The notes below the pieces were generated by a model. That model searched no databases. It was not told the DNA's origin and saw nothing but the letters and a program-made list of their open reading frames with translations. Shown here in pieces: positions 28,918-51,354 of a DNA stretch of 64,000 nucleotides (positions within the stretch are counted from its first letter, which is position 1; every line of letters starts with the position of its first letter). Source of the DNA: Eledone cirrhosa (lineage: Eukaryota); the NCBI GenBank assembly GCA_964016885.1, contig OZ024742.1:364064001-364128000 (forward strand), written 5' to 3'. A program made the position numbers and the translations under genes.

Positions 28918-30858
28918 TATCATCAATAAGAAATCCACCAGAGAACATCAAAATTGCTCCTCTAGAGTCAAAAGTGAATGCCCATTACAAGGTAAATGCA
29001 GCACCAAAGCCATTGTATATGCGGCTAAAGTGACAACCATCAGCAACAACCAACCAGCCACCAGCGAACGATATGTGGGTATGACACAAGCAAATTCAAA
29101 ACGCGTTATTACTCACATGTCGCATCTTTCCGACATCCAGAAAAAAGATTCACAATACCTCTGGCTAGCAGAATAAGGGATTTGAAAGACCAAGGTATCC
29201 AATATAAATTGGATTGGTCAATTTTGAACCAATCTAAAGAATATGCAAGAGGAACAAGAAGATGCACACTCTGCATAAGTGAAAAATATTGGATTTTACA
29301 GAACCTTAAATCACCAAAAACCTGCCTAAATACATAAACAGAAATTTTTACCTGTTGCCCACACATAAAATCACACTTGCTTTCCAGCTCATATAAACTT
29401 AACTCACTTTCAGATACTTATCCTCCATAAACTCTTATTCTTCACTTTCCTTAAATTATCCTCTTTACAGACTTCTCTTTCTGATTTACTTTCATTTTTA
29501 ACTTTATTTTTAATTTTATTTTTATTTTTACTTCACATCCACCAATAACCCCCCCCCCTACTTTTCGATTCACTTACCTAATATATTCACATTCCACATT
29601 TTACTTCCCCATTTTCTTTCACTACCTGATATCACAATGTCACTTGCGTTTTCCACTCCAGATATAATCTGTTGTTTCGCATCCGATTTTATATTTGTAC
29701 TCATTCATTAATACGGCTGGTTTATAATCTGTATCTATGCGTGTGAGTGTGCATATGTGTGTATACGTTCTGTATATGTATACGAACGCCTCCGTATGTG
29801 TGCGTGCGTACGTATATATATGTGTGTATGTGTGTTTTTATATCTATATTTTTTAATACTTATTTATCTATGTTTTTTACATACATATTTATACGTGTGT
29901 GTGTATGCAGGTGAATGTATGTATATGTGTATGTATATGTGTGTATATGTATATGTATGTATGGGCGTGTATGTATATATGTATATACATATATAGTCGC
30001 GTACGTGCGTGTGATTAGATATACATGTAGCGATATATATATACGTGCCTCGTGTGTATGTACGCATGCATGCGCTTTTGTCTGTACGTATTTGTGTGTA
30101 TAAATATTTTCTTTTTATATATATGTGTGTGTAAGTGCGTACCTATGTTTGTTTTCTTTTCTCTAGTGTTAATTGATTACTTTCTCTTTGATTTAAAAAA
30201 AGTTTTTTTTCATTCTCACATTGTTTCATTTTTATACATATATCGAGAATGACACTTCTTTTTACTATTACACTCCCTTCCCTCTTTATCTTCCGCATAT
30301 AAGTGACCGCGCGTGTGTGTGTGTTTATGCCCGTGCTTTCATACTCGTGTGTATTTAATACCTGTATCTGGATTCGTGTTAACTATATTATCTTACAATT
30401 TCCTTTTTCAACTCATATTATATACGTATTTGTGGTCATATATACACAAATATACTTGCCCCCATATATGTACTTACGCACACATTTTCACCATACACAT
30501 GCATTTGTACATACACACATATGTACATTTGTGAGTGTATATACATACTTATACACATACCCTAACTATATTTCCTTATTTTTTATATATCTCTTGCATT
30601 ACTTTTATTTATATATTTTTTGCCCGTTAAACTCTTGCATTTCTTGAGGAGACTTTTCAAATATTTCACTATGTTTTAAATTGCCTTGTCCGACGAACGA
30701 ATGAGGACGTTTTTCGTATTCGTCTTATTCGGGAAACCTCTGGTAATGAGGTAATTATATTGTATTGTTTATTATACATTAAATTTTGCTCTGGTACTTA
30801 CATAGAGCATTCTTCACTCCTATGACTTTTCAATTTTCAACAGAAACTTCAATACTTA
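28918..30858 (+). mobile_element. Naiad-type PLE 3' portion: linker ZF + GIY-YIG remnant (28920-29430), long 3' UTR, pLTR
   Basis: Manual translation: CSSRVKSECPLQGKCSTKAIVY..RYVGMT..FKTRYYSH..SFR..WSIL..CTLCISEK..CLN..EIFTCCPH; not in the ORF track. Confidence 0.85.
30685..30756 (+). ncRNA. Hammerhead-like motif with CCGACGA core
   Basis: CCGACGA-a.cgaatgaggacg..cgtcttattcg.g-GAAA-cctc..gagg-TA; stem I poor. Confidence 0.55.
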
Positions 30859-30990
30859 TATATATATATATATATATATATATATATATATATATATATA
30901 TATATATATATATATATATATATATATATATATATATATATGTATGTATGTATATATATATATATATATAAATATATATATATATATATA

Positions 30991-32781
30991 TCACTTTCTA
31001 CCTACATACACTATCTAAAAACTAAAAATAAACCATACACACTCAAATGGGAAGTGATAGGCAGCGCGACCTCGTACAAACCACCTAATAAATTTTGTAA
31101 CCTCTGTATACTAGAGACACACAATATTATCTTCTCCAACCGTAACCTACTTAACAAAAAATCTGAGGTGTTTGCAACTTGCCAGCACCGCTTCAGACAT
31201 TCCTTCCAAAACTTTAAGCCCAATATATAGCAATGTCGGACTGGAACCTAGCACCACATCTAGCATCAAACACCAGAGACACACCTTATACTACATACCC
31301 AACACTAACTGATCTATTATAACACAAACAACGACATCCCTCTGGAACCCTTCACAGGGAGAATACCCATTTATACCTCTACGTCAGGTGTGACAACATC
31401 CACTCACTTGAACGGCACTACACCGCTCTAAGGGTAATTTGAGCATGAATTGATCGGTTGGATAGTGTTGTGCAGAGGAAACACCTTCCTTAGACAGATG
31501 AAAAATGATTTAATCTAGTAACGCTGTTGAGCAGTAGGACCAGGCTGCTGAGCGCAGTGAGTGAATGCCTTGCAACTGCCGTGCGGGTTGTACATATATG
31601 GTTGATCTGACGGTCAGAGAGGGGTCGCGAGGACTGCGGATTGACCTCTGGCCGGCCTGGGGTTGATTATCTTTCGACATCCAATGTAGCAAGCGATGAC
31701 CCAGAACATACCAGAGATCATTGGGTCCTGAAGCAATCCTGCAATCACCGCGCCTGGTCCTATGAGTAGACTACAACCACAGAGATCATTAATTTAGAAT
31801 CCTCGCTCATCATCTATAATTTCCATTTGTGGCACCTTACGTTGGGTTAATCCACCATAATAATATGATCACCTTCAGCATAACTTAATTAAACTACTCT
31901 ATAGTTAATACACTTTATGCTTTAAAAATTTTCTTGGAGGATGCGCATCACCATAGAAATTAGAGTCTATATTGTGACACATTTTAATAGCTAGGTATAG
32001 AAACCCCGGAGTTACCTCCCCGCATGCATTAACTCCCCTTAGCCACACACACTCTTCCGGGTGGTATTCAATGGCGTTTCTCGAAACGTAACTGCCTCCT
32101 GTATTGAACTAAAGAACACCAGACTACGATCTCTAACTGGATTGTCAAACGCTCAATATCGGATTGTCGTGGATTATGTGAGGGGCATATAATCGAAAAA
32201 TACACTCCCCCGACCATGAAAATGCCGAAGTACATGAAATACTTGACATCCCCTCGCTGTGCATCTCCAATACTTTTAACACTTTTAATGCTTGCACTAT
32301 TTTTAATGCTTATAACATTTCTCCACACACAGACTATATCAATCATATAAATAATTTGCCACCAGATCTACCAACCTAACACTCTTGTTTACCTACCTAA
32401 GTGCCTCTACCACACATATCTCTCTGCCACACTATATAAACAAGACGCACATGCGTGCCACACATATAACATTTGCACTATATAACCGCTTATCTTCATG
32501 TTGTATTTTAACCTGTATTTTTGATTTTTGATTGTACCTCTTAATATATATGTAATCTCGAAGTGTGTACTGCCACTCTAAATTCTGTAATGAATGTTGA
32601 CCCACAATGTTTTAATATGTATCAATGTTTGAATATCTATCGGTATGCCTCTCGGCTGAAGAGGAGGTCATATAACTGTCCATGCATTAATAAATTGCTC
32701 CGAAGAATCCAAACCTCGGTTTGGAGGAAACAGCTGTAAGCACAATAATGTTTTGAACAGTTCTTTGATTCTTATATTTCA
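30991..32781 (+). mobile_element. Naiad-type PLE 3' portion with long 3' UTR/pLTR between TA tracts
   Basis: [40 protein letters not shown] at 30991-31230. Confidence 0.85.
32696..32742 (+). ncRNA. Minimal hammerhead with CCGAAGA core
   Basis: tgct-CCGAAGA-a.tccaaac ctcg gtttgga.g-GAAA-cagctg-TA-agca. Confidence 0.75.
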
Positions 32782-49495: not shown

Positions 49496-49684
49496 TGTAT
49501 ATGTATATGTGTATATGTATATGTATGTGTGTATATGTATATGTATATGTGTATATATGTGTGTATATGTATGTGTGTATGTATGTATATGTGTATACAT
49601 ATATATGTGTGTATATATATATATATATATATATATATATATATATATATATATATGTATATATATATATATATATATATTTAG

Positions 49685-51354
49685 TAAAATAACAGATCAA
49701 AGTTTAAGCAAAGAATCGCTGCTTTCACCCTTAACGGGATCTTCTGAAACTAAAAAAGTCAATCTGTAAACGCAGAACTGGATATTTCAAAAAACGTTGC
49801 AACCGGAGGAAGACAGGAAGACGATACGTTGGTTCGTGGTAACGTTCGCTGGCAAAGAACGGGAAAAAACGAATAATACGTCATTAATAGGAGCGGTGAA
49901 AAACAATTACGCGCAAAGACAAAACCACGTTTATGGTATAAAAGAGGTCGTAGACTAATGTTCTCTTAAGTGGTGCATAGAGACGTTCTCTGGCAATGAA
50001 CGAAAAAACGAAGATAATAAGTCATATGTGGAGCGTGGAGAACAATAGCACGCAAAGACAAAACCACGTAAATGGTATAGCAGAAATCGTAGACTAAAAT
50101 TCTAACTAGGAGACCAAATGAATCTCCGCTACAGAGTTAAGAACAAAGTAAATAAATACAATACAGAAGTAATAGGAACAAATAAATACATACACGCAAA
50201 CAGATACGTACATACACAAGCATACGCAAAACCTTACCATGGGTATACAAAACCACGCACATATAAATATGTGTGTGTGTGTATGTTTGTGTACAAATAA
50301 ATAAATAATTATATAAACGTATATAAGTAAATAAATACGTATATAACAAGCGCACACGCATACCTACATATAAATACACGAATGTTCGGAGACGTAAGTT
50401 AACTAAAACAAGAAGTACACATATACACACACCCACCATACGTACGAACCTGCACACTCACGCGGACGAAAAACTCCCGTATACACATAGCCAAACCCTA
50501 AATACCAGAATATGTAAAAATTATACGCTATAACAGTCAAATATACGTACGAGAAGGTATACATACCTTCACAAAACATACGGGTAATATATACTTACCT
50601 ATGCAAATACGTAATGCAAATACTTCTTGTTTTAGTTGACTTACGTCTCCGAACATTCGTGTATTTATATGTAGGTATGCGTGTGCGCTTGTTATATACG
50701 TATTTATTTACTTATATACGTTTATATAATTATTTATTTATTTGTACACAAACATACACACACACACATATTTATATGTGCGTGGTTTTGTATACCCATG
50801 GTAAGGTTTTGCGTATGCTTGTGTATGTACGTATCTGTTTGCGTGTATGTATTTATTTGTTCCTATTACTTCTGTATTGTATTTATTTACTTTGTTCTTA
50901 ACTCTGTAGCGGAGATTCATTTGGTCTCCTAGTTAGAATTTTAGTCTACGATTTCTGCTATACCATTTACGTGGTTTTGTCTTTGCGTGCTATTGTTCTC
51001 CACGCTCCACATATGACTTATTATCTTCGTTTTTTCGTTCATTGCCAGAGAACGTCTCTATGCACCACTTAAGAGAACATTAGTCTACGACCTCTTTTAT
51101 ACCATAAACGTGGTTTTGTCTTTGCGCGTAATTGTTTTTCACCGCTCCTATTAATGACGTATTATTCGTTTTTTTCCCGTTCTTTGCCAGCGAACGTTAC
51201 CATGAACCAAAGTATCGTCTTCCTGTCTTCCTCCGGTTGCAACCTTTTTTGAAATATCCACTTCTGCGTTTACAGATTGACTTTGTTAGTTTCAGAAGAT
51301 CCCGTTAAGGGTGAAAGCAGCGATTCTTTGCTTAAACTTTAATCTGTTATTTTA
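49685..51354. repeat. Long inverted repeat of a PLE 3' UTR/pLTR; arms 49685-50417 and 50621-51354
   Basis: Identical ORFs on opposite strands (50106-50357 minus and 50681-50932 plus); the + arm runs on to 51450 and (TA)n. Confidence 0.95.
51288..51338 (+). ncRNA. Hammerhead with CAGAAGA core (also 49701-49751 and 43004-43054, minus)
   Basis: agttt-CAGAAGA-t.ccc gttaa ggg.t-GAAA-gcag cgattct ttgc-TT-aaact. Confidence 0.72.

What the first reader, a model, noticed from the sequence alone, without database searches (positions are those of the whole stretch)
30685..51338. Recurrent substitution of core position U4 (CCGANGA, CAGAAGA) in four independent hammerhead families
Seen: CCGACGA (30690), CCGAAGA (32700), CCGAAGA in both pLTR copies of one element (42727 and 39557-39563 minus), and CAGAAGA in all three copies of another family (51293, 49701-49751, 43004-43054). 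The remaining core is intact, and stem I is intact except at 30690. Several also have a non-Watson-Crick 10.1/11.1 pair (A.G or U.U). Established: U4 is highly conserved in CUGANGA. Inference: repetition at one position across copies and families looks like a tolerated, attenuated variant class rather than decay, and standard searches would miss it. Novelty is not verified against the literature.
Basis: partly seen in the sequence, partly recalled or inferred. Interest (0 to 1): 0.75.

Follow-up and report, generated by a model that had tools for sequence, protein, structure and literature searches.

The report
U4-substituted hammerheads in Penelope retrotransposons
Four jumping-gene families in this animal genome carry, in thousands of copies each, a hammerhead self-cutting RNA motif in which one normally fixed core letter (U4) is C or A while the catalytic letters and helices are kept, so they are likely slowed rather than dead ribozymes, though cutting is untested.

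Summary
Real, and not copy decay. All seven motifs sit at 3' ends of four Penelope-like element (PLE) families: three Hydra-clade-like, one Penelope/Poseidon-like. Genome-wide, family D has A4 in 100 of the first 100 of 18,371 matches, and family B has C4 in 99 of 100 of 2,819. Families A and C are about two-thirds C4, each with a U4 subfamily. C4 persists across B subfamilies whose flanks are 63% identical, and A4 persists in older D subfamilies. In 1.46 Mb, position 4 was the only single core position changed at family level, apart from the known U3-A8 swap. Corrections: stem I at 30690 is intact (11 bp, other register); the 10.1/11.1 mismatch is ordinary and unlinked; Rfam misses canonical PLE hammerheads too. 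Against: a fifth family has A4 plus U6, published U-turn mutants are weak, and one PLE reverse-transcribed without cleavage in vitro. U4C is known from one viroid. I found no paper on fixed U4 loss in PLEs, but could not read Lunse 2017. This scan has noted single such families before, on other DNA of this genome.

The parts
30679..30756 (+). Family A type I hammerhead-like motif: C4 core at 30690-30696, long stem II, 3-bp stem III, 11-bp stem I; predicted cut after 30745
   Evidence: 1,081 pattern matches genome-wide, 346 of them U4
28909..30784 (+). 5'-truncated family A element (Hydra-clade-like PLE), ending shortly before a (TA)n tract
   Evidence: 92% identical to L202 over 1,886 columns; endonuclease remnant at 29050-29427
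32696..32742 (+). Family B hammerhead-like motif: C4 core at 32700-32706, A.G at 10.1/11.1, palindromic stem III; predicted cut after 32738
   Evidence: 2,819 matches, C4 in 99 of the first 100
30991..32783 (+). 5'-truncated family B element; full copies elsewhere are 4.2 kb with an 832-aa open frame
42724..42755 (+). Family C minimal hammerhead-like motif: C4 core at 42727-42733, unpaired A after A9, 4-nt palindrome in place of stem III; this copy lacks 3 nt of stem II/loop II
   Evidence: 3,678 matches, C4 in 67 of the first 100
39532..39566 (-). Family C motif in the inverted 5' piece (39370-39597); C3 at 39563; one stem II mismatch in this copy
39593..42846 (+). Near full-length family C element (RT plus C-terminal GIY-YIG), broken frame in this copy
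   Evidence: 88% identical to L199; L199 frame of 900 aa hits RVT_1 and GIY-YIG
51288..51338 (+). Family D hammerhead-like motif: A4 core at 51293-51299, U.U at 10.1/11.1, 5-bp stem III; predicted cut after 51333
   Evidence: 18,371 matches, A4 in 100 of the first 100
49701..49751 (-). Family D motif in the inverted arm of the same insertion (49682-50614 minus, 50621-51357 plus)
43004..43054 (-). Family D motif of a separate short insertion (about 42900-43327 minus)
27047..27053 (+).

Best explanation
Four Penelope-like retrotransposon families carry type I hammerhead motifs at their 3' ends in which the family majority has C or A instead of U4 while the other core letters and the helices are kept, and these are likely slow but still cutting ribozymes. 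SHOWN: the substitution is inherited from source elements, the families multiplied with it, and in B and D it outlasted subfamily divergence. ESTABLISHED: G12 and G8 do the chemistry; U4 makes U-turn hydrogen bonds, and a protonated C can replace U in other U-turns. INFERRED: losing U4 lowers the rate without removing the active site. A PLE needs little cleavage, since uncut RNA was the main template in vitro, and its own protein can assist the fold. Position 4 is therefore the cheapest core position to change, has changed several times, and is roughly neutral or mildly favoured, while G5, G8 and G12 stay under purifying selection. B and C would cut as dimers (palindromic or absent stem III); D could fold as a monomer.
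For: Family majorities. Position specificity: of 17 repeat clusters in 1.464 Mb, 4 carry non-U4 (A, B, C, D), 10 are canonical, 2 have U3-A8 and 1 is a weak cluster changed at position 14. Persistence: B1 and B4 have 63 of 100 flank columns identical and proteins 44-71% identical over matched pieces, yet both have C4; among core positions only N7 and H17, which are free in hammerheads, differ. The stem III palindrome changes on both sides between B subfamilies and in contigs of 2 of 4 other organisms, with C4 unchanged in all 4. A4 holds in 88 of the first 100 of 302 D copies with longer loop II, and no other letter was listed at that place in 4 of 4 runs laid. In family A the free-core search gave U4 36 and U7 23, against G5 changed 4 and G8 changed 2, of 100 (hand count); family C gave U4 33 against G5 changed 3. 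The C4 subfamily of A is the younger one: median 2.9% (13 copies) against 5.0% (33 copies). Intact frames exist: 2 of 5 full B copies and L199 for C. Precedent: a viroid U4C variant is weak in vitro but infective.
Against: No activity data, and no RNA holder was listed (one search is uninformative). In a type III hammerhead, all CUGA-turn single and double mutants other than the C3/G8 swap had low activity. A fifth family has A4 plus U6 (37 and 38 of 38 copies) and a relative with an extra base in the core, so the core can erode further while stems stay. Cleavage-dead mutants of the anole PLE still supported insertion in vitro. A4 cannot mimic the U imino group (inference), so the C+ argument covers only C4. 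Stem II of B and an upstream purine run are as conserved as the core, without compensatory changes, so conservation does not single out catalysis. The U4 excess over G5/G8 changes can also reflect a U4 founder subfamily rather than selection. No intact frame was seen in the A or D copies fetched.
Confidence: 0.55

Rival explanations
1. The motifs no longer cut. The three-helix fold is kept as a binding or priming platform for the element's RT-endonuclease protein, and U4 is the first letter lost once catalysis is dispensable.
For: Cleavage was not needed for insertion in vitro, and no reads ended at the cut site in the anole element. The A4+U6 family shows further core erosion with stems kept. 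U-turn mutants are weak. Naiad PLEs multiply without canonical hammerheads.
Against: G8, G12 and the other core letters stay fixed across B subfamilies with 37% flank divergence while only N7 and H17 vary. No convincing family with a changed catalytic G appeared among 17 clusters or with two changes allowed (three weak clusters with changes at 6/12, 8/12/16 or 13-15 disagreed among their own members).
Confidence: 0.25
2. Neutral hitch-hiking: a source element acquired a damaging U4 change by chance and its burst of copies spread it; the motifs are simply young and have not yet decayed.
For: B1 is very young (27 of 41 top hits identical over 101 nt). A and C hold both C4 and U4 subfamilies. U-to-C is a common transition.
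Against: C4 creates a CpG yet is the majority in every B subfamily sampled, including the distant B4 (95 of 100). A4 is shared by older D subfamilies. Chance would not put all four single changes at one of about 11 positions (about 1 in 1,000 if families were independent, which they only partly are).
Confidence: 0.1
3. Position 4 changed because it pairs in an alternative OFF fold (with 11.1/G12/A13 or an upstream strand), making the ribozyme a conformational switch.
For: C4-G11.1 (A, B1, B2) and A4-U11.1 (D) are complementary. Predicted pairing of 4 with 11.1 is 0.90 in B2 and 0.27 in D, against 0.17 and 0.00 with U. The B alignment folds a conserved upstream GGAG onto positions 2.2-4.
Against: The 4-11.1 helix is not predicted for A, B1, B4 or C. 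The upstream helix has no compensatory change. Canonical families show equally strong predicted mispairing of C3/U4.
Confidence: 0.1

Closest known systems
Minimal type I hammerheads of metazoan Penelope-like elements (Cervera and de la Pena 2014, PMC4209133)
   Same: Place in the terminal repeat, type I topology, palindromic or missing helix III, unpaired base after A9 (family C), dispersed truncated copies, U3-A8 variant also present in this genome
   Different: All 56 representatives in their Fig. S3 have U4 (the search core was fixed); here C4 or A4 is the family majority
Hydra-clade PLEs and their hammerheads (Craig et al. 2021, PMC8557442, File S2)
   Same: RW[K/R], DKT and CxCx5C motifs, (TA)n targets, frequent U.U at 10.1/11.1, short helix III
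   Different: All 26 Hydra rows listed have U4; family B is 4.2 kb against the usual under 3 kb
Natural viroid U4C hammerhead (Ambros and Flores 1998, as cited in Perreault et al. 2011, PMC3088659)
   Same: Same substitution; reported as weak in vitro yet sufficient in vivo
   Different: A single viroid variant; here U4C is the majority state in three retrotransposon families with thousands of copies, and U4A occurs too
Protein-assisted hammerhead of the anole Poseidon element PAc (PMC11167929)
   Same: PLE hammerhead; offers a route by which a weak core could still cut
   Different: No position-4 change is mentioned in the passages read; protein assistance is untested for these families
Small PLE-associated hammerhead variants that cleave as dimers (Lunse et al., RNA Biol 14:1499; not readable here)
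   Same: Short stem III and dimer cleavage, per the review passage
   Different: Unknown whether that collection includes position-4 variants; this is the main gap in the novelty claim

Membership tests
Type I hammerhead ribozyme | Helices I and II with helix III (or a palindrome that forms it in a dimer) around the core | tested here: met
   stem I is only 3 bp next to the core in family C; two-sided change of the stem III palindrome in B
Type I hammerhead ribozyme | Core letters C3, G5, A6, G8, A9, G12, A13, A14, A15.1, U16.1, H17 | tested here: met
   majority state in A, B, C and D
Type I hammerhead ribozyme | U4 of the CUGA U-turn | tested here: not met
   A4 in D; C4 in B and in about two thirds of A and C; so filed as hammerhead-like variants, not canonical members
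Type I hammerhead ribozyme | Site-specific self-cleavage after H17 | not testable with these tools
   needs an assay; no RNA holder listed
Type I hammerhead ribozyme | Loop I-loop II tertiary contact | not tested
   not examined; generally lacking in PLE motifs
Rfam hammerhead families | Match to a covariance model | tested here: not met
   no hammerhead hit for B, D or four full elements; the canonical motif at 57109 is missed too
Hydra-clade PLE (families A, B, D) | RWK-like motif, DKT in place of DKG, CxCx5C linker | tested here: met
   RWK or RWR, DKT and CxCx5C in all three; Pfam gives no hit for these frames
Hydra-clade PLE (families A, B, D) | Insertion into (TA)n | tested here: met
   3' ends run into TA tracts
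Hydra-clade PLE (families A, B, D) | No CCHH motif in the endonuclease | tested here: inconclusive
   none evident by eye in the translations; not aligned to references
Hydra-clade PLE (families A, B, D) | Placement in the Hydra clade on an RT tree | not tested
   no tree with reference proteins was built
Penelope/Poseidon-type PLE (family C) | RT followed by C-terminal GIY-YIG, DKG motif | tested here: met
   the clade name itself is a recalled resemblance, not tree-tested

The most novel reading that the evidence does not exclude
Position 4 is a tuning dial: PLE lineages have repeatedly been selected for hammerheads whose U-turn is broken (C4, A4, even A4+U6), so that cutting depends on the element's own RT-endonuclease protein or on dimer formation. 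That would be a natural class of protein-gated hammerheads, present in tens of thousands of copies and invisible to CUGANGA searches.
Probability: 0.2. Interest if true: 0.75.

Novelty: new variant of a known kind. Interest (0 to 1): 0.52.

Why it matters
What PLE hammerheads do is open: they cut poorly, and one was dispensable for insertion in vitro. Families A and C supply natural, near-isogenic U4 and C4 subfamilies that both multiplied, and D supplies a very high-copy A4 core, so the question 'does the element need cutting, and how fast' becomes directly testable. Extrapolating from the first-100 listings, roughly 24,000 copies in this genome have a non-U4 core, about a fifth of hammerhead hits in the sample (20 of 90). 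Fixed-core descriptors therefore undercount these motifs, and reports of PLEs 'without hammerheads' deserve a re-scan with position 4 freed.

Tried and rejected
Rfam: no hammerhead among the 150 of 209 hits shown for the window, among 62 hits for four full elements, or in three short stretches; no second known ribozyme was found in the elements. The repeat finder was swamped by microsatellites. Link between U4 loss and the 10.1/11.1 mismatch: rejected. Post-insertion CpG decay as the source of U4 copies in A and C: rejected, since changes are strand-asymmetric, inverted pairs mostly agree, and linked diagnostic sites exist. In B4 decay is symmetric (U4 3, A5 6 of 100). Coding constraint on position 4: unlikely, as open frames start downstream of the core in B, C and D. 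Thermodynamic folding does not separate variant from canonical motifs. The copy tree of family A on 565-nt windows was noisy because flanks were included and was not used. Linking canonical motifs to their proteins mostly failed, so no tree of position-4 states was built. Expression: no RNA holder listed; only contigs could be laid, which show no RNA ends. Family C was barely covered in the other organisms (1 of 4 runs). Literature: 6 of my 8 searches were aimed at natural position-4 variants and returned only the viroid case; two searches were for mutational and structural context. Lunse et al., Ambros and Flores 1998 and Scott et al. 2013 are not held.
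Full report
Observation. The window is part of a 3.0-Gb animal genome and is rich in Penelope-like elements (PLEs) and TA microsatellites. I wrote a type I hammerhead descriptor that lets any one core position vary. In the window it returned 17 hits at score 13 or more: 11 canonical and 6 changed, all at position 4.

Host elements. Family A (30690) ends a truncated element at 28909-30784, B (32700) one at 30991-32783, C (42727, 39563) a near-full element at 39593-42846 with an inverted 5' piece, and D (51293, 49746, 43049) two insertions. 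Full copies elsewhere give an uninterrupted 832-aa frame in 2 of 5 B copies and a 900-aa frame for C that hits RVT_1 and GIY-YIG. The longest frames seen for A and D were 584 and 645 aa. A, B and D carry the RW[K/R], DKT and CxCx5C marks that Craig et al. give for the Hydra clade and are 32-45% identical to each other; C has DKG and is barely alignable to them. So there are two clades, and three of the four families share one.

Family state of position 4. Exact-pattern searches with position 4 free gave: B 2,819 matches, C4 in 99 of the first 100 listed; D 18,371, A4 in 100 of 100; A 1,081, with C 67, U 31, G 2 of 100 and 346 U4 in all; C 3,678, with C 67, U 33 of 100. A narrower pattern gave 2,996 for C with 14 U of 100. 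Listings cover only the first contigs, and the letter counts are hand counts. The U4 copies of A and C are subfamilies, not decay: inverted pairs mostly agree, U4 in A travels with diagnostic sites (27 of 35 against 6 of 40 at one site), and the opposite-strand CpG changes are rare (G5 changed 4, G8 changed 2 of 100 in A; G5 changed 3 of 100 in C). Leaving out the 30 loci picked by likeness to the window copy, C4 copies of A are younger than U4 copies (2.9%, n=13; 5.0%, n=33), whereas in C the 5 U4 copies are the less diverged (3.3% against 5.0%, n=21).

Persistence. B has several subfamilies. The most distant, B4 (338 matches), has C4 in 95 of 100, flanks identical to B1 at 63 of 100 columns and protein pieces 44-71% identical (that script's pattern fixed part of the core, but the pattern-free BLAST shows the same copies). 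Between B1 and B4 the core differs only at N7 and H17, while loop II, the 10.1/11.1 pair and stem III change. D-like copies with a 6-10 nt loop II (302 matches) have A 88, U 5, G 4, C 3 of 100. Contigs of four other coded organisms showed no other letter at B's position 4, and two showed a two-sided change of the stem III palindrome. Four runs showed no other letter at D's position 4. These were 7 runs' worth of slots from 24 listed (6 different runs), contigs only, laid at 80% likeness.

Is it only position 4? In 1.464 Mb (window plus 140 10-kb stretches, 10 of them next to the window), 161 hits formed 17 clusters found in two or more loci: 10 canonical, 2 with the known U3-A8 swap, 4 with non-U4 (A-D) and 1 weak cluster changed at position 14. 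The reversed control gave 16 hits and 2 weak clusters. Allowing two changes added a hammerhead-shaped family with A4 and U6, confirmed genome-wide (38 matches; A4 in 37, U6 in 38), and three weak clusters whose members disagreed. So position 4 is the main soft spot, but erosion can go one step further, which counts against a purely catalytic reading.

The 10.1/11.1 mismatch. U.U is present in three canonical families of the window, in 14 of 26 published Hydra rows, and as a tested natural variant in Perreault et al.. A.G is shared by both the U4 and C4 subfamilies of A, and B4 has C4 with a U-A pair. It is not coupled to U4 loss.

Mechanism. G12 and G8 carry the chemistry, and the CUGA turn is structural; mutants there were weak in a pairwise scan of a type III hammerhead. 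A viroid U4C variant was weak in vitro but infective, and protonated C replaces U in other U-turns. PLE hammerheads cut slowly, mostly as dimers; the anole one cut only with the element's protein and was not needed for insertion in vitro. The reading that fits best is a slow ribozyme under continued selection, with position 4 the cheapest change (0.55). A non-cutting protein platform (0.25), neutral hitch-hiking (0.1) and an OFF-fold switch (0.1) remain. Folding predictions did not separate them.

Known or new. All 56 representatives of Cervera and de la Pena and all 34 rows of Craig's File S2 have U4, but both searches fixed the core. Six searches aimed at natural position-4 variants returned only the viroid case. 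Papers as seen: PMC4209133, parts 1-2 of 4 of the text and parts 1-2 of 3 of the supplement; PMC8557442, passages, section 11, supplement part 2 and searches; PMC3088659, passages and section 8; bioRxiv 10.64898/2026.07.22.740005, part 1 of 5 (supplements closed); PMC6765202, PMC11167929, PMC8490949, PMC9901934, PMC3907566, PMC4105743, PMC6155905, PMC7229834 and PMC13725137, passages only. Lunse et al. and Ambros and Flores were not seen; the large collection in Lunse et al. (size recalled, not checked) and Perreault's Figs 5, S6 and S7 (figures not visible) may hold further position-4 cases. Earlier notes of this scan describe the D family, a C4 family and another A4 family on other DNA of this genome; they are not independent support.

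Verdict. A real, recurrent, family-level loss of U4 in PLE hammerheads of two clades. It is a new variant of a known kind, with activity untested. Interest 0.52.

Noticed in passing
L101:4425-4465 (+); 38 genome matches: A fifth repeat family with hammerhead shape and a doubly changed core (A4 and U6, the reverse of U4/A6), in a short piece flanked by TA tracts; a relative in L026/L027 has one more base in the core.
   Followed up: partly
L179:1887 (-): A single well-formed motif with A4, an 8-bp stem I and a long stem III, unrelated to family D; possibly another A4 family.
   Followed up: no
window 2494, 3097, 36902, 38363, 48121, 52465, 57109, 58627, 60192, 60766, 61871: Eleven canonical U4 hammerhead motifs of five families in the same window, useful as assay controls.
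   Followed up: partly
L159:7507 and L097:7105: Two repeat families with the U3-A8 core swap; one copy of the second (L163:3287) also has C4.
   Followed up: no
window about 32655-32670: A purine run about 36 nt upstream of the B core is conserved across B subfamilies and could pair with positions 2.2-4; family A has a similar run about 40 nt upstream.
   Followed up: partly
window 34116-35618 (-): Another Hydra-like PLE frame (40% identical to B) with no hammerhead found in the 2.2 kb downstream; many Hydra-like endonuclease fragments in the sample also lacked a detected motif.
   Followed up: partly
window 1-2070 (+): Open 690-aa PLE RT-endonuclease frame running off the window start, followed by a canonical hammerhead at 2494.
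   Followed up: no
window about 20300-23290 (-) and 12755-13507 (-): Broken non-LTR retrotransposon frames: an endonuclease-RT element and the C-terminal part of another; type judged by eye only.
   Followed up: no
window about 4870-5960 and 9170-10050: Minisatellite arrays (the second with a 23-bp period, also at about 18080-18400) that give long open frames without coding meaning.
   Followed up: no
L097:8460-9764: Canonical hammerhead repeated in tandem every 310 bp, resembling a non-LTR retrozyme array.
   Followed up: no
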